Part shown: positions 11,686-26,168 of the stretch, piece by piece
Position numbering within the stretch: position 1 is the first letter of the stretch
Layout of the letters: the number at the start of each line of letters is the position of its first letter
NCBI GenBank assembly: GCA_052326305.1
Contig: JBKQPJ010000017.1
Span: forward strand, 6,475-70,474
DNA: 64,000 nt
Direction of reading: 5' to 3'
Origin: Thermoplasmata archaeon
Lineage (GTDB): Archaea > Thermoplasmatota > Thermoplasmata > Lutacidiplasmatales > UBA184
Position numbers and translations under genes: made by a program
Notes under the pieces: model-generated
The model's database searches: none
Seen by the model: the letters and a program-made list of their open reading frames with translations, nothing else
Told to the model about the DNA's origin: nothing

Positions 11686-11689
11686 ATCG

Positions 11690-11956
11690 CTATTCAAACA
11701 GCTCCACCCTCCTTCCGGTCGCCCCGCGGTACCGATCGACCCGGTACAGGATCCCCAGCGTGAACAGGCAGGAGAGGACCGCCGCGATCCCCCCGATCGC
11801 GACGAACAGGAGGTCCAGCGGTTCGCCGGCCGCGACCCCGAGCACGCCGTAGACGAAGGTCGCCGCCCCCGCCGAGCCGACGATCACGAACCCGGCGAGG
11901 ATCCCCCAGAGGACCCCGGTCTTCCATTGGGGCCGGTCCGCCCGGGGTTCAGTCAT
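11690..11956 (-). CDS. small integral membrane protein (2 TM)
   Basis: ATGA overlap with the cytochrome b stop; strongly hydrophobic. Confidence 0.45.
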   Translation of the reverse strand: MTEPRADRPQWKTGVLWGILAGFVIVGSAGAATFVYGVLGVAAGEPLDLLFVAIGGIAAVLSCLFTLGILYRVDRYRGATGRRVELFE

Positions 11957-13298
11957 GGGGCCTCCGCTCGGGGACGCCGGGAGGGGAGGGGGAGCCTGCG
12001 GACGGGGGGCGGTAGACCCCCTCGAACGCGTGCGGCCGGGCGGCGATCCGCCGGCGGTAGCTGCGCACGTACCTCCAGTGGAAGAGCGCGACGGCCAGCC
12101 CGTTCACGAGGAAGATCGGTCCGAGCGTTTGGGCGACGACCATCGGCGCTACCTGGACCCCGGGGGTCTCGCCCCCCCAGACGGTCATCAGGATAAGGAA
12201 GCCGAGCAGGGAGGTCGCGATCCAGATGAACAGCGGGCGGTCGCGCGGATGGGTGCGCTTCGACCGGTCGAGGAACGGCAGGAACAGCACGTACGCGATG
12301 AGGGCCGTCGTCGCGCCGACAGCGATGAGGGGCGTCACCCCCTGGAAGTCGACCAGCTTGAACACCCAGAGGAAGTACCAGTCGGGCTCGGTCACGCCGG
12401 GCGAGACGCCGAGGTTGCCGACGTACGTCGGGAGCTGCCACGGCCAGAGCGCGGCGATGCCGAAGAGGACCCCCGTGTAGAGGAGGCCCCATTTCGCCAT
12501 GTAGAACAGGATGTGCGGCATGAACGGCACGTGGCTGCGGTCGTCCTTCTCGGTGAACCGTCGCCGCTGGGCCGGGTCGGAGGTGGCCGGCGGCGCGATC
12601 CCGTGCGATTCGAACAGGGCGATGTGGGCGTAGAGGAGGGCCCCGAGCGCGATCGGGATCAGGAGCACGTGGGCGTCGAACATCCGGGAAAGGAGCCCCT
12701 GGGTGGTCCCGTCCCCCTGGACGAACGGGCCGAGCAGGGGCCCGAAGGTCGGCAGACGGAGCGCGAGCACCAGGCCGACGTTCGTCGCGTTGTAGGAGAG
12801 CTGCGTGTAGGGAAGGAGGTAGCCGGTGAACCCCATCCCGAGGGTGAAGACCATCAGGAGCGTGCCGACCATCCACGAGAACTCGCGGGGGGCCTTGTAG
12901 ACGCCGAGGTAGTAGCCCCGGAAGAAGTGGACGAACATGAGGAAGATCATCGCGTAGGCGCCGTACAGATGGGTCGAGAGCAGGAGGGCGCCCATCGGCA
13001 CCGAGTGCAGGAGGTAGTACGTCGAGCACCAGGCGGCGGGCGCCGCGGAGAGCGCTCCGACCGGTTGGCCGCAGGGGGTAAGCGTGGGCAGGGTGCTCGG
13101 CTGGTAGTAGAGGAGGAGGAGGGCCCCCGAGACGACCTGGTAGAGGAAGGCGTTCACGACGAACGCCCCGGTCCAGTACGACGGCTTGAACGTGAACTCG
13201 GGTTGGGGCCGTAGCGCCCACTTGCGCATCGCCGTGCGGTCCTCGACGAACCCCCAGAGGCGGTTGAGGGTCCGGTTGTACCATCGAGAGAACGTCAC
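11949..13298 (-). CDS. cytochrome b of a bc-type complex
   Basis: HSVPMGALLL ... HLYGAYAMIFLMFVHFFRGYYLG bis-histidine heme motifs; 449 aa. GTG start 17 nt after the Rieske stop. Confidence 0.9.
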   Translation of the reverse strand: MTFSRWYNRTLNRLWGFVEDRTAMRKWALRPQPEFTFKPSYWTGAFVVNAFLYQVVSGALLLLYYQPSTLPTLTPCGQPVGALSAAPAAWCSTYYLLHSVPMGALLLSTHLYGAYAMIFLMFVHFFRGYYLGVYKAPREFSWMVGTLLMVFTLGMGFTGYLLPYTQLSYNATNVGLVLALRLPTFGPLLGPFVQGDGTTQGLLSRMFDAHVLLIPIALGALLYAHIALFESHGIAPPATSDPAQRRRFTEKDDRSHVPFMPHILFYMAKWGLLYTGVLFGIAALWPWQLPTYVGNLGVSPGVTEPDWYFLWVFKLVDFQGVTPLIAVGATTALIAYVLFLPFLDRSKRTHPRDRPLFIWIATSLLGFLILMTVWGGETPGVQVAPMVVAQTLGPIFLVNGLAVALFHWRYVRSYRRRIAARPHAFEGVYRPPSAGSPSPPGVPERRPHD

Positions 13299-13314: not shown

Positions 13315-14013
13315 CTAGAGGAAATTGCAGAGGTGGACCGGCGACTCGGTCGCCAGCTGGCTCGTGTTCCCCACTCCGTAATCGCCCTGCAGCGTGTTGA
13401 GGTGCCCGTTCACGGGCGGACCGACCACGTTCGTCGCGAAGACCTGGTTGGCCTGTGGGCCGGTGGTGTAGGGCGCGGTCAGGATGACCTGGGGCAACGG
13501 CAGGACCGCCGGTCCGGTAAGGTTCGAGGCGCGGTTCGCGACGTCGTAGGTCGAGCCATGGCAGGAGCAGTGGATGTAGAAGTTCTTCCCGCCGGGCGAG
13601 TCGTCCTGGCACGTCCCGGGGGGGTAGTACGCGATCGCCGGCGCCGGGCACCCGAGGTGCTGGCAGATCGCGCTGAACGCGACGATCGAGCCGTACGGCC
13701 CAATGCCTCCGGGAACGTAGTCCTGGACCTCGTGGAGGTTCAGGAGGAAGTTCGGCTCGTTCCGCAGCGGATAGTTGAAGAGGTACAGCTCCGAGGTCTT
13801 GCCGTTGATCCCGGTGTTCGGGTCGAGCGAGCCCTTGCCGATCGTGAGGGGGCTGCCGTCGAGGTCGAGCAGGAGGACCGTGGGGTAACTCGACAGGCCG
13901 ACCGCCGGCGGCTGCACGTACTGGAGCGCTCCGCCCACGGCCCCCCCGGCGCCGATCCCGAGCACGCCGGCCACGGCCGCGAGCTTCAGGATGTTGCGTT
14001 TCGTCTCATCCAC
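13315..14013 (-). CDS. Rieske [2Fe-2S] iron-sulfur protein (Tat substrate)
   Basis: Box I CQHLGCP and Box II CSCHGS. A KR-type twin-arginine signal (TKRNILKLAAVAG). The ORF is open to 14235, but a GTG at 14013 gives a typical length. Confidence 0.8.
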   Translation of the reverse strand: MDETKRNILKLAAVAGVLGIGAGGAVGGALQYVQPPAVGLSSYPTVLLLDLDGSPLTIGKGSLDPNTGINGKTSELYLFNYPLRNEPNFLLNLHEVQDYVPGGIGPYGSIVAFSAICQHLGCPAPAIAYYPPGTCQDDSPGGKNFYIHCSCHGSTYDVANRASNLTGPAVLPLPQVILTAPYTTGPQANQVFATNVVGPPVNGHLNTLQGDYGVGNTSQLATESPVHLCNFL

Positions 14014-14123
14014 CTCCCCGTCGGCGGCGGCGACGCGACGGACCTGGCCGATCGGCAGTTCGAGCGCCGCCTCGCGTCGGGGCGGGAACGGGCACGCGTC
14101 GGTCCCGCAGAGCTCGGGGAACG

Positions 14124-14309
14124 TCAGAGGGTCCTCCCCCGGGTGTCCGGCCGGGCGTCGTCGGCCTCCCCGGGCGGTGGGATTGTCGCCTCGCCCGGGA
14201 GCTCGGCGTTCTCGCTCCCGTAGTAGACGCCCCACGTGATGCCGATCCCCATCAGAAGGACGAGGACCTCGGTCAGCGTCACGATCTGGTCGGGGGAGAG
14301 CGCGCTCAT
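14124..14309 (-). CDS. hypothetical single-TM protein (61 aa)
   Basis: Track ORF with one hydrophobic helix, between tatA2 and Rieske. Confidence 0.3.
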   Translation of the reverse strand: MSALSPDQIVTLTEVLVLLMGIGITWGVYYGSENAELPGEATIPPPGEADDARPDTRGRTL

Positions 14310-14686
14310 CGGAACTCCTCCGTCGGCGGGACCCCGCCAGTGACCGACCAGCTGAGGATCGGCGAACCGCCGGTCCAGGGCACGCCCGGGGGCGGCGGGA
14401 GGCGGGGGAGCGCGGCCGGAGGCACCGTCACGGCCGCCGGGATGGCACTCGCGCGGGCGACCGCGGGGTCCAGTCCGAGCAGCGCGGATCGCAGGCTCGG
14501 CGCTCCATTACCGATCGGCAGGTCGGCCGCCTTCGACACCTCCGAGAGCAGGTCCTGCTTCAGCCGGATCGCGCGGCCGTACCATCGCCCCAGCGTCCGC
14601 ACCACCTGGGCGTTCTCCCGGCCGAACAGGAGGAACGCCGCGACGACCGCGATGATCATCCAGTCGATGTCGGAGAACATCCCCAT
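14306..14686 (-). CDS. tatA: Sec-independent translocase TatA/TatB-family protein
   Basis: N-terminal TM helix followed by a FGRENAQVVRTLGRWYGRAIRLKQD amphipathic helix. Confidence 0.6.
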   Translation of the reverse strand: MGMFSDIDWMIIAVVAAFLLFGRENAQVVRTLGRWYGRAIRLKQDLLSEVSKAADLPIGNGAPSLRSALLGLDPAVARASAIPAAVTVPPAALPRLPPPPGVPWTGGSPILSWSVTGGVPPTEEFR

Positions 14687-14690
14687 CAGC

Positions 14691-15524
14691 TCACCCCGCT
14701 CCCGCGGCGAGCCCCGGCTTCGCGCGGGCGTTCGAGCGGCGCTCCCAGCGGGCGGCGAAGTACGCCCCGCCGAGGTAGAGCGCCATCATCGGCGCCGCGA
14801 TCAGGAGCATCGTGATGCCCGAGTTGTCCGGGGTCACGATCATGCCGAAGATGAGGGACCCGAGGATCGCCCCCCGCCAATGCTTGCGCCAGGCCCCGGC
14901 CCGGACGACCCCGAGGCGGGTCAGGCCGTAGATGAAGACCGGCAGCTCGAAGACGACGCCGAAGGCGAGCGAGTAGAGCAGGGCGAACGTGACGAACGAC
15001 TGGACGCCGAGCACGGGGTCGAGCCCCATCGCCGCCACGTACAGGAACAGGAGCCGGAAGGTGAACGGGGTCAGGAAGAACACGCCGATCGCCGTGCCGA
15101 GGGCGAAGAGCGCCGTCGCCGGTAGGCCGATCTGGCGCAGCAGCATCCGCTCGTTCCGGCGGAGGGCGGGGACGAGGAACGCGGCGACCTCGTGGACGAT
15201 CCACGGCATTCCGAGGATGAGGGTGAGCAGGAGCCCGATCTCCATCTGGACCACGATCGAATCCGCGACCCCGACGTTCAACAGCGTGATCCCGGGCGGG
15301 AGCATCCAGGCGACCATGGCGCGGAACACCTGCGCCGTGATGTTGTAGAACGGGTTCGGCCAGGGGTAGGCGAGCGGGATCCTCCACCCGTCGACCGTGA
15401 CGTGGAACGGCACCAGCCGCACGAGGATGAGCGCGCCGAAGAGCGGGCCGAGCACCAGCGCGACGCGGACGAGCCGTCGCCGGGCCTCGGAGACGACCGC
15501 AAGGATCCGGTCGAGGTCGCCCAT
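14691..15524 (-). CDS. tatC: Sec-independent translocase TatC
   Basis: 277 aa, 6 TM helices, TatC-like loops. Confidence 0.9.
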   Translation of the reverse strand: MGDLDRILAVVSEARRRLVRVALVLGPLFGALILVRLVPFHVTVDGWRIPLAYPWPNPFYNITAQVFRAMVAWMLPPGITLLNVGVADSIVVQMEIGLLLTLILGMPWIVHEVAAFLVPALRRNERMLLRQIGLPATALFALGTAIGVFFLTPFTFRLLFLYVAAMGLDPVLGVQSFVTFALLYSLAFGVVFELPVFIYGLTRLGVVRAGAWRKHWRGAILGSLIFGMIVTPDNSGITMLLIAAPMMALYLGGAYFAARWERRSNARAKPGLAAGAG

Positions 15525-15630: not shown

Positions 15631-15837
15631 CTAGCGCGGTGCGGTCGACGAGGGGGCTCCGGGGGATGGTGCGGTCTGCTCGGCCTTCAGCTCGCGCTCG
15701 ACCTCGAGACGGCCCTTCTTGAACTCCCCGACGGACCGACCGAGGCTATGGGCGAGCTGGGGAATCTTGCTGGACCCATAGAATAGGATTCCAGCCACTA
15801 CGGCGATGATCAGCCAGTCGTCGATGGAGTCGAACAC
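15631..15837 (-). CDS. tatA: Sec-independent translocase TatA
   Basis: IIAVVAGILFYGSSKIPQLAHSLGRSVGEFKKG. GTG at 15837 preceded by GAGGAGA; the track ORF extends to 15909. Confidence 0.65.
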   Translation of the reverse strand: MFDSIDDWLIIAVVAGILFYGSSKIPQLAHSLGRSVGEFKKGRLEVERELKAEQTAPSPGAPSSTAPR

Positions 15838-15954
15838 CGTTCTCCTCGACCGTCTCACTCGGGAACCGCCGATATGACGTTCGTACGGTGCGACCCAACC
15901 CGTACGCACGGTCCGTATCTGGGGCGGATAAAGGGTCGATCGCGGCCGGGCATC

Positions 15955-16998
15955 TCAGGCGAGCTCGGTCAACACGGATTCGCTGCCCGACGCGACGGCC
16001 CGGTCGATCGCGAGCTCGGCGAGCAGCGAGAGGCAGGTCCCGGAGCGCTTGAGGAGGTACGACGTGGCCCGGTTCCGGCCCGAGCGGGCGCTCAGCGCCG
16101 TGGCAACGGCCGCCAGCGCCGAGCCGTTCCCGACGCGGTCACCCTGTTGGTAGACCTCGCAGGCGTGGTCGAGGGAGGGATGCATGACGGAGTCGACCAC
16201 CGCCTTGAGCTGGCCCTTGACATCGGGGATGATCTCCGCCAGTCCCGCGGCGGCGTCGATCGACAGGCGGGGCGCCTCCTCGTTCAGCGTCGCCAGCGCC
16301 TCGCCGAAGAGCGCTGCGAGCTCCTCGAGGGAATGGACCACGACCCGCCATTCGAGCAGCTGGCGGGGGTCGGGGCTGCCGATCCGTCGGGCGAGCGACC
16401 AGTCGCGGCTCGCGAGGAACAGCTGTCGCACGAGCAGGGCGAGCACCTTGTTCGCCTCCTCCTCGAGGGTCGGAAGCCGACGGCTGCGCCCCTTGCGCCG
16501 GGCGACCTCCTCCATCTCCTCGAGGAAGGCGACCAGGATCATCTTCATGCGCTGGACCAGCTGGGGAAGGCCGTACTTCGACGGGTCGATGAAGTTCTGG
16601 AGCACGACCCGGTTGGGCTCCTGCGCGACCACGGAAACGCCGAGGAGCCCCCGGGCGGCCTGGAGCAGCTCCTCGAGACGATCCGGGGCGAGCGGCACGT
16701 CGGTGCGGACCTCGATCGAGTCGTGCCCGACCCGGTAGGCGCCGACGATCAAGCGCTCGAGCAGCCCCGGCGTCTCGATCGACCGCGCCTGGACGAGGAA
16801 CGGAGTGGTGACCCCCGGGGCTCCGGGCGCCGGGGCGGGTTTCAGGTACAGCGTCCCGTCATCGTTCTGGTCGAAGACGACGAGATCCCCGGGATGGAGG
16901 TTCATCGCCTCGGCCCACGGCTTGGGGAGGGTGACCGCGATCGACGAATGGCCGGCCTTCAAGACTCTACGCTCCCGACTCGGGGTTCCCCACGCCAT
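15955..16998 (-). CDS. PhoU-family regulator with N-terminal AbrB/SpoVT domain
   Basis: N-terminus VLKAGHSSIAVTLPKPWAEAMNLHPGDLVVF (SpoVT/AbrB swapped hairpin), followed by PhoU-like helical repeats. Confidence 0.65.
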   Translation of the reverse strand: MAWGTPSRERRVLKAGHSSIAVTLPKPWAEAMNLHPGDLVVFDQNDDGTLYLKPAPAPGAPGVTTPFLVQARSIETPGLLERLIVGAYRVGHDSIEVRTDVPLAPDRLEELLQAARGLLGVSVVAQEPNRVVLQNFIDPSKYGLPQLVQRMKMILVAFLEEMEEVARRKGRSRRLPTLEEEANKVLALLVRQLFLASRDWSLARRIGSPDPRQLLEWRVVVHSLEELAALFGEALATLNEEAPRLSIDAAAGLAEIIPDVKGQLKAVVDSVMHPSLDHACEVYQQGDRVGNGSALAAVATALSARSGRNRATSYLLKRSGTCLSLLAELAIDRAVASGSESVLTELA

Positions 16999-17086: not shown

Positions 17087-17806
17087 TCAGGCGGTCGGCG
17101 GGGAAGTCGGCGGTTTGCCGGCCGGCGGAGCGCCCGGTTCGGCGTAGCCGAGCCGCTCGGGAGGCATCTCGTGCTTCGCCCCCTCCCGCCGCCCGACCAC
17201 GAACCCGGCGACGATGGCGATCACGGTCAGGGTGACGATCGTCCCGACGATGATGAAGACGGCCAGCCCCGGCCCCGGGGCCGAGGAGGAGGGGACGAGA
17301 TAGGCCGGGACGGTCGTGTTGAAGGCGATGAAGCCGTACATCCCGGCGGCGAAGTGGCCCGATTCGGTGCAGACGAACTCGTACCAGCCGGGTTTCGATG
17401 GGGCCGTGAAGCTCCGGGTGAGGGAGGATTTGGCCGCGGGGACGATGTTCGCGAGGGGCGGGAGGGCGCACGTCGAACCGGTCCCGTTGATGAATTGCTG
17501 GGGGGTATCGGTCGACGGTATCGAGACGTTCGCGCACCCTAGGATGGTGAACGTATGGATCCCGCCGTTCGTGTCGCCGTTGATGAACTTGAGCGAGATG
17601 GAGACACTCTCGGGCACCCCGTTGATCACGTTCGGGGTGAACCCGAAGGTGCTCGTCGCCGTGACGGTCACGGACGTCGAGGTGTCCACGATCTCGGACG
17701 ACGCCCGGGCCTCCCGGACGACATCGTTGCCTGCCAGTCCCGCGAAGAGGACCAGAAGGAGGATGCCTACCGCCACGGCGGTGCGTCCGGCTCGCTTCAC
17801 TCCCAT
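17087..17806 (-). CDS. membrane-anchored type-1 blue copper protein (sulfocyanin/halocyanin-like cupredoxin)
   Basis: Cu site CTESGHFAAGMYG with upstream GGIHTF His. An N-terminal signal/anchor (ATG verified at 17806) and a C-terminal TM helix; several N-x-S/T sequons. Confidence 0.8.
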   Translation of the reverse strand: MGVKRAGRTAVAVGILLLVLFAGLAGNDVVREARASSEIVDTSTSVTVTATSTFGFTPNVINGVPESVSISLKFINGDTNGGIHTFTILGCANVSIPSTDTPQQFINGTGSTCALPPLANIVPAAKSSLTRSFTAPSKPGWYEFVCTESGHFAAGMYGFIAFNTTVPAYLVPSSSAPGPGLAVFIIVGTIVTLTVIAIVAGFVVGRREGAKHEMPPERLGYAEPGAPPAGKPPTSPPTA

Positions 17807-17941
17807 CCTGTCCGGGGAGCTCCCCCGGCCGCCCCTCGCAGACCGGGTGCGGTTCAAACCCCCTCCGTACGTACCCGTTCGCCCGTATCCGGGGCCCGGG
17901 AGGGCAAAACCGTACGAACGCGGGGGATATGTAGGGCCGTA

Positions 17942-18184
17942 GTGCACGACCCCATCGTGGACGGGTCCAGAACGTCGGGGACGCGGACGATCCCCCTGGC
18001 GTTCGGCTCCTTCGGGGCGGTCGGGTCCGGGACGGCCGGTGCGACGAACCTTCAGCTCACCCAGCCCCTGCTCTGGGCGATGATCGCGATCAGCACCGCC
18101 GGAGCGATCGTGACGTTCGCCTTCCTCGTCTACGCCCTCTGGCGCTACCGGGATCCGGCGGTGCGGAGGCGACGTTATGGTTAA
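17942..18184 (+). CDS. cytochrome oxidase subunit II N-terminal fragment (TM1 + basic cytoplasmic loop); split gene or frameshift
   Basis: Hydrophobic helix LLWAMIAISTAGAIVTFAFLVYALW followed by RYRDPAVRRRRYG. It ends with a TAA that overlaps the ATG of the next ORF (ATGGTTAA). Confidence 0.45.
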   Translation: MHDPIVDGSRTSGTRTIPLAFGSFGAVGSGTAGATNLQLTQPLLWAMIAISTAGAIVTFAFLVYALWRYRDPAVRRRRYG

Positions 18185-18635
18185 CAAGCTCGAGGTCGCC
18201 TGGACCCTCACGGTCGTCGCCCTGATCACCGGGGTCGGCGTGTACTCCACGGTCCTGCTCTACAAGATCGACGCGCTCACACCGAACCCGGCCGAGTACG
18301 TCGAGGTGACCGGCCACCAGTGGTACTGGGAGTTCTGCTACTCGAACAAGACCTGCTTCAACTCGAACTACAACGCCGCCACCGGCCAGACCACCGGCGG
18401 GGCGTTATGGGCGACCCCCGGTTCGGTGATCCAGGTCAACGTCACCGGCGCCGACGTGATCCATTCGTTCAACATCCCGCAGCTCGGCATCCGGATCGAT
18501 GCGATCCCGGACCGGGTGAACACGATCGACATCCAGATCCCGAACGCTCCGGTGGGCACGGAGTACGCGATCCAGTGCACGGAGTTCTGCGGGACGTTCC
18601 ACGGCACGATGCGCTCGGAGCTCGTGCTGACGTAA
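18177..18635 (+). CDS. coxB: cytochrome oxidase subunit II (TM2 + CuA cupredoxin domain)
   Basis: GHQWYWEF aromatic motif and CuA ligands H...CTEFCGTFHGTM. Confidence 0.9.
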   Translation: MVNKLEVAWTLTVVALITGVGVYSTVLLYKIDALTPNPAEYVEVTGHQWYWEFCYSNKTCFNSNYNAATGQTTGGALWATPGSVIQVNVTGADVIHSFNIPQLGIRIDAIPDRVNTIDIQIPNAPVGTEYAIQCTEFCGTFHGTMRSELVLT

Positions 18636-18672
18636 GGCGCCCGAGCTCCCCCGGCGGAGGGGCCGGTCCGGT

Positions 18673-19746
18673 TCACGCGCCGCCGTGCTGGGAGGGAGGC
18701 GACCGGGGGAAGCGGCCGGCGAACCCCGCGACGACCAAGAACACGGCCCCGATCCCGAGGAGGATCGCGGAGCCGGCGAGCACCCACGTCTCCACGATCG
18801 CGCTGCTCGGCGGACCGCCTCCCGTGGGCACCGGGACCCCGGCGTAGAGGTACCCGAACATCCCATTCTCGAAGTGGCCGGGGACGGTGCAGACGAACTC
18901 GTAGATCCCTTTCGCGGGGATCGAGAAGTTGGCCCAACCGCTCTTCCCGGCCTCCGAGGGGATCGTGGCGTTCGCGAGCGGAGGATGGTCCTTGAGCCAG
19001 CCCACCGTCGTGATGTTCAGGTCCGGTTGCGCCACGACCGTGAACGTGTGGGCGAGACCGCCGAGATTGGTGACCTTGATGATCACGTTCGCGGGGAACT
19101 GGGCGGGCTGGGCCGAGAGGGCCGCCGGCTGGAAGGAGAAGGAGTTCGTCGCGTTGTCGGAGAGGACGAGACCGGGCGAGCTCGACGAGATGTTCAGGAA
19201 GCCCCACATGCCGGCCTGGAACTGGTACGGGACCTGCGACACGAACTCGAAGGAGTCGAGGCTCGCGGTCTTCGCGATGGAGAAGTTCGCCCATCGTTCG
19301 TGACCCGCGGGGACCGAGACGTTCGCGATCGGCGGGTAGCTGGCGAACGATTCGTTCAGATCTGCCGGAGTCCAGGATCGGTTGAGCAGGACCCCGCTCT
19401 GGCTCGACAGGGTGAAACTATGCGGGAGGAGACCGGTGTTGTTGAGGTGCACCGACACGTTGTCGCCGGGCGCCGCGCTGATCGACCTCGGGTCGAACGC
19501 CGGCCCGTCCGTCAGGACCAGGTAGATCGTCTCGTTGGCCGCCGCCGGGTGGGCGTACCCGACGGACGGGGCGAAGGAGAGGAACGGCACGCCGCGGGCC
19601 CCTCCGACCGACGCGACGACGGCCAGCACGAGCCCGGCGGCGAGCCACGGGGACGCCCGACGCACACCTCCCGCCGATCGGCCCCACGGCGTGACCTTGA
19701 CCGCCTCCCGGGAGACTCTCGACCGCCGAACCGTTGATATCGGCAC
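18673..19746 (-). CDS. two-domain cupredoxin-family surface protein, C-terminally membrane-anchored, heavily N-glycosylation-sequon-rich
   Basis: The C-terminal domain has an intact type-1 Cu site (LAHTF ... CTVPGHFENGMFGY). The N-terminal domain is cupredoxin-like but lacks the Cys/His ligands. Eleven N-x-S/T sequons and a C-terminal TM helix. Confidence 0.75.
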   Translation of the reverse strand: MPISTVRRSRVSREAVKVTPWGRSAGGVRRASPWLAAGLVLAVVASVGGARGVPFLSFAPSVGYAHPAAANETIYLVLTDGPAFDPRSISAAPGDNVSVHLNNTGLLPHSFTLSSQSGVLLNRSWTPADLNESFASYPPIANVSVPAGHERWANFSIAKTASLDSFEFVSQVPYQFQAGMWGFLNISSSSPGLVLSDNATNSFSFQPAALSAQPAQFPANVIIKVTNLGGLAHTFTVVAQPDLNITTVGWLKDHPPLANATIPSEAGKSGWANFSIPAKGIYEFVCTVPGHFENGMFGYLYAGVPVPTGGGPPSSAIVETWVLAGSAILLGIGAVFLVVAGFAGRFPRSPPSQHGGA

Positions 19747-19770: not shown

Positions 19771-20808
19771 TTAGCGGACGGAGAGGGGCCGGTCGGCCGC
19801 GGACGGTTCCGCCGGGCGCGTGCGGACCGCGGGGCGGGCCGATCCCGTCGCGTCGGTCTGGCGTAACGGCGGGGTGGCGGCCGTCGGTCCGGAGTAGCAG
19901 CGGCGGACGAGGTAGCTCACCTCCCCGACCATGCCGACGGTCATGACCGCGCCGAAGAGTATCCGGGAGGCGTTCTGGCCCCCGTCGGCCACGAGCCCGA
20001 CGGCGGAAACGGCCATGGCCAGGAAGAGCCCGCTGAGCGCGATCAGGAATCGCAACTCGGACGGCGACGCCCGGTGCTGCAGGAGGACCCGGGCCACGAA
20101 CAGGAACAGGCCGACCATCACCGCCGCGGCGGCGAGCCCGCCGACGAGCGGAAAGGCGGTCACCCACGGGGCCGAGACGCTCGCGAGGGCGAGGGCGGCG
20201 GACCCGGATCGCTCGACGGAGGAGAGCGGCGCCCAGAGAAGGAGCGCGATCATCACCACGGCCATCGACCAGTAGAGCCAGATCGACGAGAGGCCGAGGG
20301 CGATCGCCGTCGGGATGGAGAGCGCCCCGCTGGCCCCGCCCACGGCGAACAGGAGCCCCATCAGCACCTCGGAGCCCGTCACCGCGACCCCGAGGGTGAG
20401 CGGCCAGGTCCAGCCCCGCGTGGAGATCGTGCGGTCCTCGAAGAGGATCTGGGAGACGAACCAGAACCCGGCCGGGAACATCATCATGAAGTTGAACGAG
20501 AGCAGCACCCAGGTCCATGCCTCCGTACCGTTCTGGTCGATGAAGACGAAGAGCAGCGAGAGGAGCAGAACGCTCCCTCCCGAGAGCACCGAGAGCGCGA
20601 GGACCAGCTGGGTGAGGAGCGGTGGGGCTCGTTGGCGGGGGAGGACCTTGATCAGGACGAAGACCGTGATCGCGATCATCGCGATGGCGATGACCGCGAA
20701 CGGCAGCAGGGCCGCGCTCACGCCGACGACCGGGAACGGGACCCGCATTCGCTGAGCCCGCCGAGCTCCGGCCGTTTGATATCGTGCCGGTACCGACCCG
20801 CCTCGCAC
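19771..20808 (-). CDS. polytopic membrane protein (7-8 TM), possible oxidase accessory subunit
   Basis: Highly hydrophobic and co-directional with, and directly upstream of, the cupredoxin gene. No diagnostic motif recognised. Confidence 0.55.
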   Translation of the reverse strand: MRGGSVPARYQTAGARRAQRMRVPFPVVGVSAALLPFAVIAIAMIAITVFVLIKVLPRQRAPPLLTQLVLALSVLSGGSVLLLSLLFVFIDQNGTEAWTWVLLSFNFMMMFPAGFWFVSQILFEDRTISTRGWTWPLTLGVAVTGSEVLMGLLFAVGGASGALSIPTAIALGLSSIWLYWSMAVVMIALLLWAPLSSVERSGSAALALASVSAPWVTAFPLVGGLAAAAVMVGLFLFVARVLLQHRASPSELRFLIALSGLFLAMAVSAVGLVADGGQNASRILFGAVMTVGMVGEVSYLVRRCYSGPTAATPPLRQTDATGSARPAVRTRPAEPSAADRPLSVR

Positions 20809-20873
20809 GGCGCCGAGGTGCGGCGCGACGCGCGCGGGACGTGGCTCGGTTCGCGGGGGAGCGGCGGCGGCCC

Positions 20874-22433
20874 TCAGGCGCCGTTCGGGCCGCGAAGGGG
20901 TTTGGCCATGTGGGGGCCCCGCGAAGAGTACCCCTGGCGCCGGTAGTAATCTCGCGTGCCGACGGCGCTCATGACATAGATCTCGTCAAAGCCTCGATCC
21001 CGCGCTTCCTCCTCCGCCGCGGCGAGCAACCTCCGGCCGAAGCCCCGGTGCTGGAAGTCGCCCGGCCCGAGCGCGGGAGCGCCGACGGCGAGCTCCGGGC
21101 CGAGGACCTTGAGCTCGCGGACCACCGGGGCCCGGAGGCCCTCTTCGGTCGTCCCCGACGGGAACCGGAGCCGGAGGAACCCGGCGATGCGATCGCTCTT
21201 CGTCTCCTCGAACGCGAGGAATCGCTCCTCGCCACCGCCGGCGTCGAAGCCCGTTCGGGTCAGGGCGAACTCCTCGGCCGCGGGGGTCGTACCGCGACCG
21301 ACCTCGCGGCAGCGGAGGCACCGGCAGTGAGCGCCGTCCCGCGCGAGCCGCTCCAGGGCGAGCTGGCGAAGGTTGCTCGCGCGAACTCCCGCGGCGATCA
21401 GGCGCGCGGGGATGTCCCTCTGGATCCGGTGGATCCGGACCCACGGCGGGAGCTCCCGCTTCATCGCGGCGAGCAGCTCCGCGGCCCGCTCGACGTCGTA
21501 CGGTTCGTAGCGTCCCGCGGCCCAGTCGTCGTGGAGCGGAGTTCCGGGGAGGACGAGCGTCGGGTAGATCTTGAGGAAGTCGGGGCGGAAAGCGGGCTCG
21601 GCCCACAGTCGACGGAAATCGGCGAGGTCGCTCGTCGGGTCCATGCCCGGCAGGCCGAGCATGAGATGATAGCCGACCTTGAGGCCCCGGTCCCGGGCCT
21701 CGCGGGTCGCCCTCGCCACGTCGCCGCTCGCGTGCGCCCGCCCGACCGCCGCCAGTACGTCGTCGTGGAGGCACTCGACCCCGATCTCGACCCGGGTCAC
21801 CCCGGCCGCCAGGAGGAACGGAAGGACCCGGCCGTCGCACCAATCCGGCCGGGTCTCGACCGTGAGGCCGACGACCCGGTGGGGCCCGGTCTCGTTGCGC
21901 TCCTGAGCCTGGACGAGGGAGGGGGCGGGGGCGCCGCCGTTCAGCCCGTCGTAGACGCCGCGGAAGACCTCCTCCTGGTAGGCGCGCGGGCGCGACGGGA
22001 AGGTGCCGCCCATGACGATCACCTCGACCTTGGAGGTCGGGTGCCCGATCTCCTCCAGCGTCTCGATCCGGTGGCGGGCGATCGCCCCGGCGTCCCAGCG
22101 GAACTGCGCCCCTCGGAGCGCGGACGGCTCCTCGCCGGTGTAGCTCTGGGGGCTGCCGTGGTCGACGCCGCCCGGACAGTAGGTGCACCGGCCGTGGGGG
22201 CACCGGGCGGGAGCGGTCATGACGGCGACGATCGCGACCCCGGAGAGCGTCCGGGACGGCTTGCGGAGGACGACGCCGGCGAAGCGGCCCCGGTCCTCGG
22301 CCGAGCGTCCGCGGACCCAGTCGACGTTCGACGGGAGCGGCCCCCCGGGGATCCGGTGGGCCTCGCGCAGCTTCTCCCGGTGGAGCTCCTCCGGCGTCGG
22401 AGGGGGGACTAGCGGCGAAGCCACGGGCGGCAC
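20874..22433 (-). CDS. elp3: Elp3-like tRNA uridine carboxymethyl synthase (radical SAM + GNAT)
   Basis: Radical SAM cluster CPHGRCTYCPGG and a C-terminal GNAT acetyltransferase domain. Confidence 0.9.
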   Translation of the reverse strand: MPPVASPLVPPPTPEELHREKLREAHRIPGGPLPSNVDWVRGRSAEDRGRFAGVVLRKPSRTLSGVAIVAVMTAPARCPHGRCTYCPGGVDHGSPQSYTGEEPSALRGAQFRWDAGAIARHRIETLEEIGHPTSKVEVIVMGGTFPSRPRAYQEEVFRGVYDGLNGGAPAPSLVQAQERNETGPHRVVGLTVETRPDWCDGRVLPFLLAAGVTRVEIGVECLHDDVLAAVGRAHASGDVARATREARDRGLKVGYHLMLGLPGMDPTSDLADFRRLWAEPAFRPDFLKIYPTLVLPGTPLHDDWAAGRYEPYDVERAAELLAAMKRELPPWVRIHRIQRDIPARLIAAGVRASNLRQLALERLARDGAHCRCLRCREVGRGTTPAAEEFALTRTGFDAGGGEERFLAFEETKSDRIAGFLRLRFPSGTTEEGLRAPVVRELKVLGPELAVGAPALGPGDFQHRGFGRRLLAAAEEEARDRGFDEIYVMSAVGTRDYYRRQGYSSRGPHMAKPLRGPNGA

Positions 22434-23554
22434 TCTCCGGTGAGCACGTAGGGCACCTTCTGGAGCTCCGCGATCGACCGGGCGCCCGTCAGGAACATCG
22501 CGACCTTCAGCTCGTGAACGAGGGTCTCGAGCTCCGCCCGGGTCTCCTCGAACCCCGTGGACGCGGCCCGCAGGAGGCCGCCGGCAATCCCGGCGGCCGT
22601 CGCCCCCAGCGCGACCGCCCGCGCGACATCGAGGCCGGAGCGGACCCCACCGCTCGCGACGACGGGCAGGCCGAGCGGGGCGACCTCGAGGACGGAGATC
22701 GGCGCCGGGATGCCCCAGTCCCAGAACGTCTTGCCGACGCGGGCCTCGCGCGCGGCGCCCCGGTCGATCGCGCGGTAGTACTCGACGGCCGCGAAGGAGG
22801 TGCCGCCCGTGCCGCTCACGTCGAACGCCCGCACGCCCCGGTCCCGGAGGGATTCGCCGACCGGCCGAGAGAGCCCGGCTCCGGTTTCCTTCACCAGCAC
22901 CGGGAACTGGTGGGCGAGCTCCCCGATCCGGTCGAGGCAGCCCTTCGCCCGCCGGTCCCCTTCGGGCTGGACCATCTCCTGAAGGAAGTTGAGGTGGATC
23001 GCGAGGACGTCGGCGTGGATGAGCTCCATCGCGCGGCGGACCTCTTCGGGCCCGACGACCGGATCGCCCGGCTTCTGCCCGATGAGCTGGGGGGCCCCGA
23101 TGTTCGCGAGCTTCAGCGGAACGGCATGCCGGGCGACGCAGGAGTAGCTTTCCGGGTACTGTCCCTTCACGACGGCGGCCCGCTCGCTCCCGACGCCCAT
23201 CGCGACGCCGACCTCGGCCGCCGCGCGCGCAAGGTGGTCGTTGATCTTCGCCGCATCGGGGAACCCGCCGGTCATTCCGGTGATCAGGATGGGCGCCCGA
23301 AGGGCGTGACCCAGGAGCGAGGTCGAGGTGTCAATCTCCTCGAAATCGACCTCGGGGAGCGCCCGGTGCACCAGCTGCACGTCGTTCCAGTAGCGGTACC
23401 TTCCTTCGACGTCCCGCCCGAGGACCACCTTGACGTGCTCGGCCTTGCGGTGGCTCAGGTCGAGCCCGTCGCGATCGGGCGACCTACCCGGGCCGCGCGT
23501 GCGCCCAGCTTCCGTAGACCGACTCCCCGCGAATCGCCCGCGCGATCGCTCCAT
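22409..23554 (-). CDS. fni: isopentenyl-diphosphate delta-isomerase type 2 (FMN-dependent)
   Basis: HRKAEHVKVVL N-terminal motif and a TIM-barrel FMN-binding pattern (GGTSFAAVE...). The exact start is uncertain. Confidence 0.9.
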   Translation of the reverse strand: MERSRGRFAGSRSTEAGRTRGPGRSPDRDGLDLSHRKAEHVKVVLGRDVEGRYRYWNDVQLVHRALPEVDFEEIDTSTSLLGHALRAPILITGMTGGFPDAAKINDHLARAAAEVGVAMGVGSERAAVVKGQYPESYSCVARHAVPLKLANIGAPQLIGQKPGDPVVGPEEVRRAMELIHADVLAIHLNFLQEMVQPEGDRRAKGCLDRIGELAHQFPVLVKETGAGLSRPVGESLRDRGVRAFDVSGTGGTSFAAVEYYRAIDRGAAREARVGKTFWDWGIPAPISVLEVAPLGLPVVASGGVRSGLDVARAVALGATAAGIAGGLLRAASTGFEETRAELETLVHELKVAMFLTGARSIAELQKVPYVLTGECRPWLRR

Positions 23555-24302
23555 CGGTCAAACCGCTAATAAGTACTGCGTCCACGCCGGCGCGGGCGAT
23601 CCGGCGCATCGACTCGGCCTTGCCCTGGATCCCGCCCGTCACGTCGGCCGAGCCTCCCGCCCGGGGGAGCGAGGCGGCCAGCGCGTCGGTGATCTCGGGG
23701 AGGACCTGACGGCGGCTCCCCCGGTTCTCCTCGAGGATCCCGGGAACGTCGGTCGCGAACACGACCCGTGAGGGTCGCAGCAGGGGCACGAGCGCCTCCG
23801 CGATCGTGTCGGCGCTGAGGACCGAGAAGCCCCATTCGTCGTCCGGCACGACGTCCCCGAAGGAGACCGGCGTCGCCCCGCGGGCGAGGGCCTCCTCGAT
23901 CGGGGTTGCATCGATGGCGACGAGCGAGCCGGCCCGGTTCCGGGCGTGGGTCGCCATCGGCGTGGAGAGGGGCGCGAGCCCCGCCCGAACGAGCTCCCGA
24001 AGGAGCGCGAGGTGGAGGCGCCGGACCTCGGCAGAGACGATCGCCGCCCCGCGGGTCCTCTCGGTCGGCTTCTCCCGAGGCAACGGGGGGCGCGCGAGGC
24101 CGAAGCGCTTCGCGCCGGGGTGACCGAACGATCCGGCTCCGTGGAGGAGGACAAGGGGCACGTCCCGAACGGTGGCGAGCTCGGCGGCGACCCGGGCGAT
24201 GACCTTCGGTCGAAGCTTCTCGACCTCACGCTTCCGGGTGACGAGGCTCCCTCCGAGCTTGAGCACGACGGGCCGCCGAGGGACCTCGGCCGTCGGGGGC
24301 AT
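23484..24302 (-). CDS. ipk: isopentenyl phosphate kinase
   Basis: Amino-acid-kinase fold VLKLGGSLVT ... LLHGAGSFGH. ATG verified at 24302. Confidence 0.85.
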   Translation of the reverse strand: MPPTAEVPRRPVVLKLGGSLVTRKREVEKLRPKVIARVAAELATVRDVPLVLLHGAGSFGHPGAKRFGLARPPLPREKPTERTRGAAIVSAEVRRLHLALLRELVRAGLAPLSTPMATHARNRAGSLVAIDATPIEEALARGATPVSFGDVVPDDEWGFSVLSADTIAEALVPLLRPSRVVFATDVPGILEENRGSRRQVLPEITDALAASLPRAGGSADVTGGIQGKAESMRRIARAGVDAVLISGLTDGAIARAIRGESVYGSWAHARPG

Positions 24303-24319
24303 CGTCGGCCGCCCTCGCC

Positions 24320-24571
24320 TTACGCGTGGTCCGGCCCGGTCGCGCGCGAGAAGAGGAGGAGAGCGCCGACGACGAGGGGGACCACGCTCGCGAGGAGCAC
24401 CCACTGGAAGGTGATCAGCCAGAACGTCATCCCCGTGAGCCCGATCCCCACGAGCGCGGCGGCCCCGACGACGAGCGGTATCGAGACGGTCCCTTCGGAG
24501 TGGCCGGCGTGCGCGTCCGAGGTCGCCGTGGAACCCGCCATCTCGGGCGAACGACTGCCGTTCCCCTTCAA
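24320..24571 (-). CDS. hypothetical 2-TM small protein
   Basis: Track ORF with two hydrophobic helices. Confidence 0.3.
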   Translation of the reverse strand: MKGNGSRSPEMAGSTATSDAHAGHSEGTVSIPLVVGAAALVGIGLTGMTFWLITFQWVLLASVVPLVVGALLLFSRATGPDHA

Positions 24572-24753
24572 ATCGGTTCGCTCGGGGTCCGGGAACGGAA
24601 TTTTCGGGCCCGGCTCGTATAATTCGCGGGTTCCGGCGGCTCCGTCGCTGGCGCGTTCCCAAAGATAGATATGCGCGCCCTACCTCGCACCCCCGCTCGA
24701 GGCCCGGGCAGGTCCGTACGTTGTCTCCTTCTCCCGAGGAAAGGCCGGCAGGG
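24572..24753. promoter_or_regulatory. candidate replication-origin/ORB-containing intergenic region upstream of cdc6
   Basis: Relatively AT-richer patches (GAATTTTCGG, GTATAATTCGCGG, AAAGATAGATATG) plus a repeated CGTTCCC motif in direct and inverted orientation, adjacent to orc1/cdc6. Confidence 0.3.
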
Positions 24754-26142
24754 ATGCCCCTCCCTTCCGAGACGCTGCAGGCGAACACCCCCGCGGCCAC
24801 GCCGGTCGGCGACCGCCGCACCGCCGTGGTCTCGGCGGCCCCATCCTCCGCCCCGTCGCCCCCCACGGCGAGCTCCGCGGCCGAGTTCCTTGACGAGATC
24901 CTCCAGAGCAAGAGCGAGTTGTTCCGCGGCAGCCGCGAGGTGCTGCGCGATTCCCACATCCCGAGCCGCCTGCCGCACCGCGAGGTCCAGATCCGTCAGG
25001 TCGCGGAGATTCTGGGGCCCGCCCTTCGGGGCGACCTCCCGTCGAATCTCCTCATCTACGGGAAGATCGGCACCGGCAAGACCGCCGTCGTCGCCCAGGT
25101 GCGCCAGGACATGCAACGGCGGGCCGACTCGGCCAAGGCCGTCTCGTTCGTCACCGTCAACTGCGGGAACATCGACACGGCGTATAGCCTCCTGCAAACG
25201 ATCGGCAACACCTACGCGCGGACGGAGGCCGAGCGGATCCCGACGGGGTGGTCGCTCGACCGGGTCCAGGCGGGGATGCGCCGCCTGATGGACACGGCCG
25301 GGGTCACCATCCTGCTCGTCCTGGACGAGATCGACCGCCTCGTGGCGCGTAGCGGCGACAGCGTCCTCTACACGCTGAGCCAGCTGAACACCGAGCTCGA
25401 GACCGCCCGGCTCGTGATCGTCGGGATCTCAAACGACCTCAAGTTCACGAACCACCTGGACGCGCGGGTCCGCAGCCGGCTGAACGAGGAGAAGATCCTC
25501 TTTCCGCCGTACGATGCGGTCCAGCTGCAGGACATCCTCCGCGAACGCGCCCGCGAGGCGTTCCGCGACGGGGTGATCGACCCGGGGGTCGTCGAGCGGT
25601 GCGCCGCGTACGCCGCGCTCGAGAACGGGGATGCCCGCCGGGCGCTCGCGCTCCTCCGGCTCGCCGCGGAGATGGCCGAGCGGGACCACGCGAAGCGGAT
25701 CACCCCCGACCACGTCGTAAAGGCCAAGAACCGCCTCGAACAGGACATCATCGTCGACTGCTGCCGGACGCTCCCGCCCCACTGCAAGGTGCTCCTCTAC
25801 GCGATCCTGCAATCGTACGAGCGCCGGCGCACCGGCGTCCTGACCGGAGAGGTCTACGACAGCTACCGCCGGCTCGCGGAGCGTCTCGGGTTGCAGCCGC
25901 TCCACGCGCGGTCGATTTCCAACTACGTCTCCGAGCTGGAGACCCTCGGCCTGATCCGGGCGACGATCGTCTCGCGGGGACGCGGCGGCCGCACCCGGGA
26001 GATCATCGTCGATGTCCCGATCTCCGAGACGATGCCCGCCCTCGAGGAGGATCCGCTCCTCGCCCCGGTCGGCCGACCCCGGACCCGCGGACAGATGCTG
26101 CTCACGAACTTCGACAACCCCGGCCGCACCGGCTCCTTCTAG
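24754..26142 (+). CDS. cdc6: Orc1/Cdc6 replication initiator
   Basis: AAA+ Walker A YGKIGTGKTAV, Walker B LVLDEID, sensor and a winged-helix C-terminus. ATG verified at 24754. Confidence 0.9.
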   Translation: MPLPSETLQANTPAATPVGDRRTAVVSAAPSSAPSPPTASSAAEFLDEILQSKSELFRGSREVLRDSHIPSRLPHREVQIRQVAEILGPALRGDLPSNLLIYGKIGTGKTAVVAQVRQDMQRRADSAKAVSFVTVNCGNIDTAYSLLQTIGNTYARTEAERIPTGWSLDRVQAGMRRLMDTAGVTILLVLDEIDRLVARSGDSVLYTLSQLNTELETARLVIVGISNDLKFTNHLDARVRSRLNEEKILFPPYDAVQLQDILRERAREAFRDGVIDPGVVERCAAYAALENGDARRALALLRLAAEMAERDHAKRITPDHVVKAKNRLEQDIIVDCCRTLPPHCKVLLYAILQSYERRRTGVLTGEVYDSYRRLAERLGLQPLHARSISNYVSELETLGLIRATIVSRGRGGRTREIIVDVPISETMPALEEDPLLAPVGRPRTRGQMLLTNFDNPGRTGSF

Positions 26143-26168
26143 CGCCGCGGGCCGGCGGGGCGCCCGGG

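What the first reader, a model, noticed from the sequence alone, without database searches (positions are those of the whole stretch)
17087..19746. Two membrane-anchored blue-copper proteins bracket the split CoxII; one is a two-domain protein whose first cupredoxin domain has lost its copper ligands
Both carry intact type-1 Cu sites (CTESGHFAAGM; CTVPGHFENGM). The 357-aa protein has a second, N-terminal cupredoxin-like domain with no Cys/His ligands, and eleven N-x-S/T sequons. This indicates a heavily N-glycosylated surface electron carrier, the sulfocyanin/halocyanin role between bc complex and oxidase. A ligand-less extra domain is unusual.
Basis: partly seen in the sequence, partly recalled or inferred. 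Interest (0 to 1): 0.5.

Follow-up and report, generated by a model that had tools for sequence, protein, structure and literature searches.

The report
Tandem cupredoxin with a copper-less domain
In a soil archaeon, two membrane-anchored blue-copper proteins flank the oxidase's copper subunit, and the larger one has an extra copper-protein-like domain whose cysteine and one histidine are serine and glutamine in every relative; it is a conserved variant of a known respiratory electron carrier, not a new kind of system.

Summary
Gene A (17087-17806, minus strand, 239 aa) and gene B (18673-19746, minus strand, up to 357 aa) flank a truly split CoxII on the plus strand. Both have invariant His/Cys/His/Met type-1 copper ligands and hydrophobic segments at both ends.

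The N-domain keeps His109 and Met180, and has Ser170 for Cys and Gln175 for His. This H-S-Q-M set is fixed in 79 of 80 species-level relatives, and its loop is more conserved than the true copper loop. It is a remodelled site under selection, not a decayed one.

B has 12 sequons, about ten times the window average, at positions conserved across the family.

The cluster occurs in at least 132 uncultured soil Thermoplasmata species, apparently Lutacidiplasmatales. It was already described in outline (PMC9287336).

Neither protein meets the sulfocyanin or rusticyanin models. The carrier role, the glycosylation and the function of the N-domain are inferences. This is a new variant of a known kind, of modest interest.

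The parts
17087..17806 (-). Protein A: single-domain, membrane-anchored type-1 copper cupredoxin (239 aa). It is the first gene of the long minus-strand respiratory cluster.
   Evidence: ORF and sequence. Pfam gives weak Cupredoxin_1 and Copper-bind hits. 462 homologues. H84/C146/H151/M156 are invariant. The family profile hits auracyanins (E 3e-10) and rusticyanin.
17339..17371 (-). Type-1 copper loop of A: C146-TESG-H151-FAAG-M156 (spacing C-x4-H-x4-M).
17090..17284 (-). C-terminal transmembrane helix of A (residues 175-207) and its cytoplasmic tail with the invariant motif GRRxGxxHEMPPERLGYxEP.
   Evidence: Hydropathy. Invariant columns in 54 homologues.
17948..18184 (+). CoxII first piece: a 78-aa peptide carrying transmembrane helix 1, ending ...RRRRYG*.
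   Evidence: The same separate ORF is found in 75 of 75 related loci. Relatives have called genes of 75-86 aa here.
18177..18635 (+). CoxII second piece: transmembrane helix 2 plus the CuA cupredoxin domain (H96, C134, E136, C138, H142, M145).
   Evidence: Pfam COX2 E 1.3e-16. TIGR02866 CoxB scores 107 bits, which is below that model's cut-off because the protein is truncated.
18673..19746 (-). Protein B: two-domain cupredoxin. The ORF is 357 aa; the NCBI call starts at V28 (19665) and gives 330 aa.
19588..19665 (-). N-terminal hydrophobic segment of B, preceded by the conserved twin-arginine motif W-R-R-[AG]-x-P-W. It is probably a Tat signal or a signal anchor.
   Evidence: R29 is present in 49 of 60 homologues and R30 in 55 of 60; P33 and W34 are each present in 54 of 60. 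AlphaFold predicts a helix at 28-50. tatA and tatC lie in the same cluster.
19183..19563 (-). N-domain of B (residues about 62-188): a cupredoxin fold without a thiolate ligand, carrying 8 of the 12 sequons.
19192..19254 (-). Remodelled site loop S165-FEFV-S170-QVPY-Q175-F-Q177-AG-M180-WGFL-N185. Together with H109 (19418-19420) it gives the set H-S-Q-M.
   Evidence: H-S-Q-Q-M in 79 of 80 distinct species sequences; the other one has Leu for Met. Column entropy is 0.50 here and 0.85 in the true copper loop. The Ser codon varies synonymously.
18838..19170 (-). C-domain of B (residues about 193-303): type-1 copper cupredoxin, membrane-proximal.
   Evidence: H233/C286/H291/M296 are invariant. The profile hits nitrite-reductase cupredoxin domains, auracyanin and rusticyanin.
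18859..18891 (-). Type-1 copper loop of B: C286-TVPG-H291-FENG-M296.
18721..18801 (-). C-terminal transmembrane helix of B (residues 316-342), following a Pro-rich linker.
   Evidence: Columns P313-V318, L323, G325, G344 and R345 are conserved.
19771..20808 (-). Conserved polytopic membrane protein of unknown function directly upstream of B on the same strand (NCBI 325 aa, start M21). It is a possible partner of B.
   Evidence: Present upstream of B in 68 of 84 loci. Its stop overlaps the start of B in L003. No Pfam, NCBIfam or PDB match.

Best explanation
A and B are two extracytoplasmic, membrane-anchored type-1 copper proteins that belong to a cytochrome-c-free respiratory module. The module comprises a Rieske/cytochrome b complex and an aa3-type oxidase with a split, CuA-bearing subunit II. 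It occurs in an uncultured, high-GC soil Thermoplasmata archaeon, apparently of the order Lutacidiplasmatales.

Shown here: both proteins have complete His/Cys/His/Met sites, and both are conserved next to CoxII.

Inferred: they carry electrons from the Rieske centre to CuA. They are probably fixed subunits of a supercomplex rather than free shuttles, because their transmembrane helices, and the cytoplasmic tail of A, are as conserved as or more conserved than their copper domains. The two coppers may act in series, taking the place of the two haems c of other chains.

B arose from the same lineage of single-domain anchored cupredoxins by acquiring a second domain. Its C-domain, next to the C-terminal anchor, is the redox-active one. 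Its distal N-domain keeps the whole cupredoxin scaffold but has Ser for the Cys ligand and Gln for the exposed His ligand.

Inferred: a Ser-Gln-His hydrogen-bond network fills the former metal cavity, so this domain is redox-silent. It would serve as a rigid, heavily N-glycosylated docking or shielding module. The invariant 'northern' loop, which is the face that cupredoxins use to meet their partners, would contact another component: CoxII, the Rieske protein, A, or the conserved upstream membrane protein.

B is probably exported by the Tat pathway encoded in the same cluster.
For: - Ligands and fold.
- The N-domain site is H-S-Q-M in 79 of 80 species and in about 24 of the 50%-identity clusters across the whole protein library.
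- Ser170 uses TCC (30), TCG (40), TCA, TCT and AGC (2), so the amino acid is held while the codon drifts.
- The N-domain is as conserved as the C-domain (entropy 1.41 and 1.29). Its site loop is the most conserved stretch (0.50, against 0.85 for the true copper loop).
- The scaffold residues N103, G105, F111, G179 and G182 match N227, G229, F235, G295 and G298 of the copper domain.
- Synteny holds in about 70 of 84 loci.
- The CuA motif is intact. There is no CxxCH protein in the cluster. Cytochrome c is reported absent from Thermoplasmatota, and blue copper proteins have been proposed as the carriers (PMC9287336).
- Anchors and tail are conserved. The twin-arginine motif is conserved.
- Sequons: 12 in B, family mean 13.2 (range 10-16), at conserved columns, and about ten times the window average.
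Against: - Nothing here measures copper binding, redox activity, glycosylation, export route or protein contacts.
- I could not inspect model coordinates. The Ser-Gln-His network and the exposure of the loop are therefore inferences from alignment with the copper domain.
- Complete retention of His109, Met180 and the second-sphere scaffold is also what a different, non-thiolate metal site would look like.
- The respective roles of A and B, and whether they act in series or in parallel, are not resolved.
- A few genomes carry B away from CoxII and A (L080-L084).
- The AlphaFold pTM for the whole protein is only 0.56, so the arrangement of the two domains is uncertain.
Confidence: 0.55

Rival explanations
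1. The N-domain is not silent. His109, Gln175, Met180 and Ser170, perhaps with Gln177 or Tyr174, form a non-thiolate mononuclear metal site. This could be a type-2-like copper site or an Fe(II) site. B would then be a two-centre protein in which a substrate- or metal-binding site is wired to the type-1 copper.
For: All four ligand-equivalent positions, plus Q177 and the second-sphere scaffold, are invariant. The loop spacing is unchanged: S-x4-Q-x4-M against C-x4-H-x4-M. In diverged relatives the axial position varies Met/Leu/Phe while Ser and Gln stay fixed, which is the pattern seen at real copper sites. The structural neighbours include cupredoxin-like domains with non-classical metal sites: EfeO/FtrB, CupA and nitrosocyanin.
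Against: One His, one Met and two oxygen or amide donors make a poor set for tight Cu(I) or Cu(II) binding. There is no extra His, Cys or Met nearby; M180 is the only Met in the domain, and H100 and H149 are variable. To my knowledge no natural precedent is known.
Confidence: 0.15
2. B, or A, is not on the main electron path. It is an oxidase partner in the manner of AcoP of Acidithiobacillus ferrooxidans: a membrane-anchored cupredoxin bound tightly to the oxidase that keeps it active in acid surroundings. The other protein would be the actual carrier.
Against: Both proteins keep canonical His/Cys/His/Met ligands under strict conservation, which argues for redox function in both. Sequence similarity to AcoP is not detectable.
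Confidence: 0.15
3. The N-domain is a decaying relic of a duplication and has no function of its own.
For: It lacks the Cys ligand needed for a type-1 site.
Against: It is present and full-length in at least 132 species. It is as conserved as the copper domain, and its site loop is the most conserved stretch. The Ser codon shows synonymous turnover.
Confidence: 0.03
4. B is a two-domain multicopper oxidase or a nitrite-reductase-like enzyme.
For: The best Foldseek matches to the whole model are two-domain laccases, aligned over about 300 columns. The profile hits nitrite reductases.
Confidence: 0.02

Closest known systems
Sulfocyanin SoxE of the Sulfolobus SoxM supercomplex (TIGR03094, PF06525)
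   Same: An archaeal, membrane-anchored type-1 copper protein encoded alongside Rieske, cytochrome b, CoxI and CoxII. It is thought to replace cytochrome c between the bc-like complex and CuA. The proposed way of working is the same.
   Different: A and B score far below the family cut-offs, lack the FNFNGTS motif, and come as a pair. B has a second, thiolate-less domain. The CoxII here is split.
Two-domain blue copper proteins directly following coxB in Ca. Angelarchaeales (PMC9038741). P0265 in locus L085 appears to be an example.
   Same: A Thermoplasmatota tandem cupredoxin next to coxB, without type-2 or type-3 ligands. The gene neighbourhood logic is the same.
   Different: Those proteins have two intact type-1 sites; P0265 is HCHM + HCHM. 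B has one type-1 site and one fixed H-S-Q-M site. Only one of B's domains is seen by Pfam, so by that paper's criteria B would be classed as a 'medium-length one-domain' protein.
Rusticyanin and AcoP of Acidithiobacillus ferrooxidans
   Same: Two different cupredoxins serve one aa3 oxidase. AcoP is anchored and bound to the oxidase. Rusticyanin shares the C-x4-H-x4-M loop spacing (own knowledge) and is hit by both family profiles.
   Different: These are bacterial and periplasmic, work together with cytochromes c, and are single-domain. TIGR03095 scores 19-27 bits against a cut-off of 146.7.
Auracyanins (Chloroflexus, Roseiflexus)
   Same: They are the best solved sequence relatives of A (E 3e-10 and 2e-9). 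They are membrane-tethered type-1 carriers in a chain that lacks soluble cytochrome c.
   Different: Bacterial, single-domain, and partnered with Alternative Complex III.
Copper-less cupredoxin domains: CyoA of quinol oxidases, SufI/FtsP, factor V/VIII A domains, plant early-nodulin-like proteins
   Different: In B the silent domain is fused to an active type-1 domain of the same lineage. It keeps two of the four ligands and has a strictly fixed Ser/Gln replacement.

Membership tests
Cupredoxin superfamily (fold) | Greek-key beta-sandwich of the cupredoxin type | tested here: met
Type-1 (blue) copper protein | His ... Cys-xn-His-xm-Met ligand set | tested here: met
   A has H84/C146/H151/M156 and the B C-domain has H233/C286/H291/M296. 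All are invariant in 54 and 60 homologues.
Type-1 (blue) copper protein: N-domain of B | Cys thiolate ligand and second His ligand | tested here: not met
   Ser170 and Gln175 occupy the aligned positions in 80 of 80 species sequences. The domain contains no other Cys.
Type-1 (blue) copper protein | Copper actually bound, with a blue spectrum and a reversible one-electron couple | not testable with these tools
   Requires purified protein.
Sulfocyanin (SoxE; TIGR03094, PF06525) | Score above the curated family cut-off | tested here: not met
   TIGR03094: A 15.6 and B 16.9 bits against a cut-off of 168.4. PF06525: B 19.2 against 21.
Sulfocyanin (SoxE) | Sulfocyanin motif FNFNGTS (as cited in PMC3750248) | tested here: not met
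   The string is absent from A and B.
Sulfocyanin (SoxE) | Encoded with the Rieske, cytochrome b and haem-copper oxidase genes | tested here: met
Rusticyanin (TIGR03095) | Score above the curated cut-off | tested here: not met
   A 19.3 and B 27.2 bits against a cut-off of 146.7. The loop spacing C-x4-H-x4-M is shared.
Halocyanin | Tat signal followed by a lipobox Cys for a lipid anchor | tested here: not met
   B has a conserved twin-arginine motif but no lipobox. Its only Cys is the copper ligand. A has no twin-arginine motif.
Two-domain multicopper oxidase / NirK | Type-2 or type-3 copper ligands (HxH motifs) at the domain interface | tested here: not met
   There is no HxH motif. The only invariant His are H109, H233 and H291.
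'Ancestral' two-domain blue copper protein with two type-1 sites (PMC9038741) | Two complete type-1 sites | tested here: not met
   B has one complete site. The relative P0265 has two.
N-glycosylated archaeal surface protein | Occupied N-x-S/T sequons | not testable with these tools
   Only the enrichment and positional conservation of sequons could be shown.

The most novel reading that the evidence does not exclude
The invariant His109/Ser170/Gln175/Met180 constellation of the N-domain is a natural non-thiolate metal site built in a cupredoxin scaffold. It could be a type-2 or 'type-zero'-like copper site, or an Fe(II)-binding site. B would then be a two-centre protein that takes electrons from a bound metal or substrate at the distal domain and passes them through its type-1 copper to the oxidase.
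Probability: 0.12. Interest if true: 0.7.

Novelty: new variant of a known kind. Interest (0 to 1): 0.3.

Why it matters
Aerobic soil Thermoplasmata have no cytochrome c, and how electrons get from their bc-like complex to the oxidase has not been studied experimentally. This work makes four points.
- The conserved module contains two distinct type-1 copper proteins, not one generic 'cupredoxin'.
- One of them is a cryptic tandem whose second domain domain-based annotation misses.
- That second domain is a fixed Ser/Gln-substituted version of a copper site, under strong selection.
- CoxII is a stable two-piece subunit.

Together these give concrete targets for expression, metal analysis and structural work on an archaeal bc/aa3 supercomplex. 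They also provide a natural test case for what a cupredoxin scaffold does once the thiolate is gone. The finding does not change the general picture of blue copper proteins standing in for cytochrome c.

Tried and rejected
- Shifted ligands. I looked for another Cys or a conserved His or Met in the N-domain. There is none: C286 is the only Cys, M180 is the only Met in the domain, and H100 and H149 are variable.
- Sulfocyanin, rusticyanin or CopI membership. Rejected on curated cut-offs. The CopI hit (44 bits against a cut-off of 280) covers only the first strands and the first His.
- A simple internal tandem duplication as the origin of the N-domain. Not clearly supported. Single-domain HCHM cupredoxins with the motif CxxPGHFQAGM score higher against the N-domain profile (up to 98 bits) than B's own C-domains do (35-67 bits). 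The order of events therefore stays open.
- The upstream membrane protein as a divergent CoxIII. No Pfam, NCBIfam or PDB-profile match supports this.
- My first tblastn query for the CoxII N-terminal piece was cut in the wrong frame, so the 'CoxIIN' counts are meaningless.
- The afdb50 fold library was not available.
- The exact NCBI protein P0001 was not on record for a contig look-up, so the source assembly of the window was not identified.
- A search for origin-type repeats near orc1 found nothing convincing.
Full report
WHERE THE WINDOW COMES FROM. The window has about 70% G+C. Gene B is 100% identical to an NCBI protein of a 'Thermoplasmata archaeon' metagenome-assembled genome (P0001). 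Relatives of B were found in 132 of the species-representative genomes scanned. All 80 retained loci are uncultured Thermoplasmata (one labelled 'bacterium') from soil, peat and similar samples. They include the AcS/SubAcS genomes of Sheridan et al. 2022 (L003 is GCA_022750335.1). That paper named the order Lutacidiplasmatales, with about 69% GC. It noted that the complex IV genes lie next to complex III, haem A/O synthesis, the Tat system, 'cupredoxin' and six unknown proteins. It also reported that Thermoplasmatota lack cytochrome c (PMC9287336). The window matches this cluster, so the overall setting was already known.

GENE MAP. The following lie on the minus strand:
- a CtaA-like gene, 9059-9631
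- CoxI, 9639-11324
- cytochrome b, 11949-13298
- Rieske, 13315-14235
- a TatA-like gene, 14306-14686
- TatC, 14691-15524
- TatA, 15631-15909
- an AbrB/SpoVT-domain protein, 15955-16998
- protein A, 17087-17806
- protein B, 18673-19746
- an unannotated polytopic membrane protein, 19771-20808

On the plus strand, between A and B, lie the two CoxII pieces: 17948-18184 and 18177-18635. A and CoxII are transcribed divergently. CoxII and B are convergent.

THE OBSERVATION. A has 239 aa once the start is placed at the ATG at 17806; the 387-aa ORF in the ORF list is an over-extension. It has hydrophobic segments at 5-31 and 175-207 and the ligands H84, C146, H151 and M156. B has a hydrophobic segment at about 31-58, a helix at 316-342, and the ligands H233, C286, H291 and M296. 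In alignments of 54 A-type and 60 B-type homologues, at 43-68% identity to the window proteins, all eight ligand columns are invariant.

The CoxII C-piece has the full CuA motif and a clear COX2 hit. The split is not an assembly error. In 75 of 75 related loci the helix-1 peptide ends ...RR(Y/H)G* in a separate frame, and in almost all of them its stop overlaps the start codon of the second piece.

IS THE N-TERMINAL HALF OF B A CUPREDOXIN? Yes.
- The two halves of B align at 36% identity, E 2e-17, with the ligand positions in register.
- AlphaFold2 with the 60-sequence alignment gives pLDDT 90-98 over both beta-sandwiches.
- Foldseek aligns about 300 columns to two-domain laccases. The TM-score is only 0.23-0.29, so the domains are cupredoxins but are arranged differently.

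WHAT HAPPENED TO THE SITE. In register with H233/C286/H291/M296, the N-domain has H109/S170/Q175/M180, with the same S-x4-Q-x4-M spacing. So two ligands are kept and two are replaced. Each replacement, Cys to Ser and His to Gln, can arise by a single base change.

The replacement is not drift.
- Among 80 distinct N-domain sequences recovered without any motif filter from the species loci, 79 read H-S-Q-(Q177)-M and one reads H-S-Q-Q-L.
- The Ser codon is TCC (30), TCG (40), TCA, TCT or AGC (2). The amino acid is held while the codon changes.
- The N-domain is about as conserved as the copper domain (mean column entropy 1.41 and 1.29). Its site loop, residues 165-185, is the most conserved stretch of the protein (0.50, against 0.85 for the true copper loop).
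- The scaffold residues around the site (N103, G105, F111, G179, G182) match those of the copper domain.

A profile of the N-domain searched against 1.84 billion representative proteins found about 24 clusters with H-S-Q-M. It also found a few diverged relatives with H-S-Q-L, H-S-Q-F, P-S-Q-M or Q-S-E-F, and many single-domain anchored cupredoxins with the canonical H-C-H-M and the motif CxxPGHFQAGM. It also turned up two other tandems:
- P0265 has two intact sites and lies directly after an unsplit coxB.
- P0273 has H-C-H-M plus Q-C-H-M.

Tandem cupredoxins are therefore recurrent in these archaea, and B is the widespread one with a fixed Ser/Gln site. Diamond et al. 2022 had already described two-domain blue copper proteins with two type-1 sites following coxB in Ca. 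Angelarchaeales (PMC9038741). By that paper's Pfam-based criteria B would count as a one-domain protein, because Pfam detects only weak, sub-threshold hits.

GLYCOSYLATION AND EXPORT. B has 12 N-x-S/T sequons, 8 of them in the N-domain. Twelve of its 17 Asn lie in sequons. Shuffles of the same protein give 2.4 +/- 1.4. The density is 3.36 per 100 aa, against 0.34 for 47 likely genes of the window, and it is the highest in the window. Homologues have 10-16 sequons, and many sit at the same columns: positions 77, 142, 154, 185, 198, 242 and 273 carry one in 50-59 of 60 sequences. This supports selection for N-glycosylation, but occupancy is untested.

A W-R-R-[AG]-x-P-W motif before the N-terminal hydrophobic segment is conserved, and tatA and tatC lie in the cluster. 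Tat export of B is therefore a reasonable inference. Whether the N-terminal segment is cleaved is unknown. If it is cleaved, the copper domain sits next to the C-terminal anchor and the Ser/Gln domain is distal.

FAMILY MEMBERSHIP. Neither protein reaches the curated thresholds for sulfocyanin, where they score 15.6 and 16.9 bits against a cut-off of 168.4. Neither reaches the threshold for rusticyanin, where they score 19.3 and 27.2 bits against 146.7. The sulfocyanin motif, a lipobox and HxH motifs are all absent. By sequence, the closest solved relatives are auracyanins and rusticyanin for A. For the B C-domain they are the cupredoxin domains of nitrite reductases, auracyanin and rusticyanin. 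The N-domain profile hits only 4hcf significantly. A and B work like sulfocyanin or auracyanin, but they are members of neither family.

HOW IT MOST LIKELY WORKS.
Shown: there are two conserved type-1 copper proteins with conserved anchors next to a CuA oxidase subunit, inside a bc/aa3/Tat cluster that has no c-type cytochrome.
Inferred:
- They relay electrons from the Rieske centre to CuA.
- The invariant transmembrane helix and cytoplasmic tail of A (GRRxGxxHEMPPERLGYxEP) and the conserved helix of B suggest fixed subunits of a supercomplex.
- Two coppers in series could stand in for the two haems c of other chains.
- The N-domain is most simply a redox-silent module. Ser, Gln and His would fill the former metal cavity by hydrogen bonding, and the domain would serve as a glycosylated docking or shielding unit.

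A non-thiolate metal site cannot be excluded; I put it at about 0.12-0.15. An AcoP-like role as oxidase stabiliser is a further rival for one of the two proteins (PMC4059628).

VERDICT. The features are real and conserved. It is also wrong about family membership. The finding is a new variant of a known kind, a cryptic tandem cupredoxin with a conserved Ser/Gln pseudo-site, inside a gene cluster that had already been described in outline. Interest is modest (0.3).

Noticed in passing
window 17948-18635 (+): CoxII is encoded as two overlapping ORFs: a 78-aa helix-1 peptide and a 152-aa piece with helix 2 and the CuA domain, sharing the 8-nt overlap ATGGTTAA. The same split and frame offset occur in 75 of 75 related species loci. 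It recalls subunit IIa of the Thermus ba3 oxidase (own knowledge). Translational coupling seems more likely than programmed frameshifting, but I did not test this.
   Followed up: partly
window 17090-17284 (-), C-terminus of protein A: The transmembrane helix and cytoplasmic tail of A (GRRxGxxHEMPPERLGYxEP) are invariant in 54 homologues and more conserved than its copper domain. This suggests a specific contact on the cytoplasmic side.
   Followed up: partly
window 19771-20808 (-): A conserved polytopic membrane protein of about 325 aa lies directly upstream of B on the same strand in 68 of 84 loci. It has many invariant Trp, Met and Pro residues and no Pfam, NCBIfam or PDB-profile match. No CoxIII gene is recognisable in the cluster, so this protein is a candidate for an unrecognised oxidase or carrier subunit.
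   Followed up: partly
window 15955-16998 (-): A 347-aa protein with an N-terminal AbrB/SpoVT (MazE-type) domain sits between A and TatA. It is the most conserved gene of the cluster: 94% identity in a relative (L001) where B is only 62% identical. It may be a dedicated regulator.
   Followed up: no
L085 6001-6921; L087 2686-3747; L086 7001-8035: Related Thermoplasmata carry other tandem cupredoxins. One has two intact type-1 sites and lies directly after an unsplit coxB (P0265). One has H-C-H-M plus Q-C-H-M (P0273). One is a B variant with Phe at the axial position, H-S-Q-F, in a similar neighbourhood (P0263).
   Followed up: partly
window 11341-11960 (-) and 14124-14686 (-): Small hydrophobic ORFs lie between cytochrome b and CoxI (about 87 and 118 aa). 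Two more lie between TatC and Rieske (61 aa, and 126 aa with a weak TatA-like N-terminus). ORFs of matching sizes are present at the corresponding positions in the relatives (87/121 and 61/127 aa in L001). They are probably the 'unknown transmembrane proteins' noted by Sheridan et al.
   Followed up: no
window about 20000-26200: Cumulative GC skew peaks at about 20-22 kb, and an orc1/cdc6 gene lies at 24721-26142 (+), so a replication origin may be nearby. A repeat search of 23400-24800 found no convincing origin-recognition-box repeats.
   Followed up: partly
window 19665-19746 (-): The NCBI annotation starts B at V28 (330 aa). However, an Arg at position 23 is present in 49 of 60 homologues, and the sequence upstream of the twin-arginine motif also looks conserved, so the true start is probably further upstream.
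   Followed up: no
window 17087-17806 (-), residues C91 and C113 of A: Protein A of this genome has two extra Cys residues that are not conserved in the family. They may form a lineage-specific disulfide.
   Followed up: no
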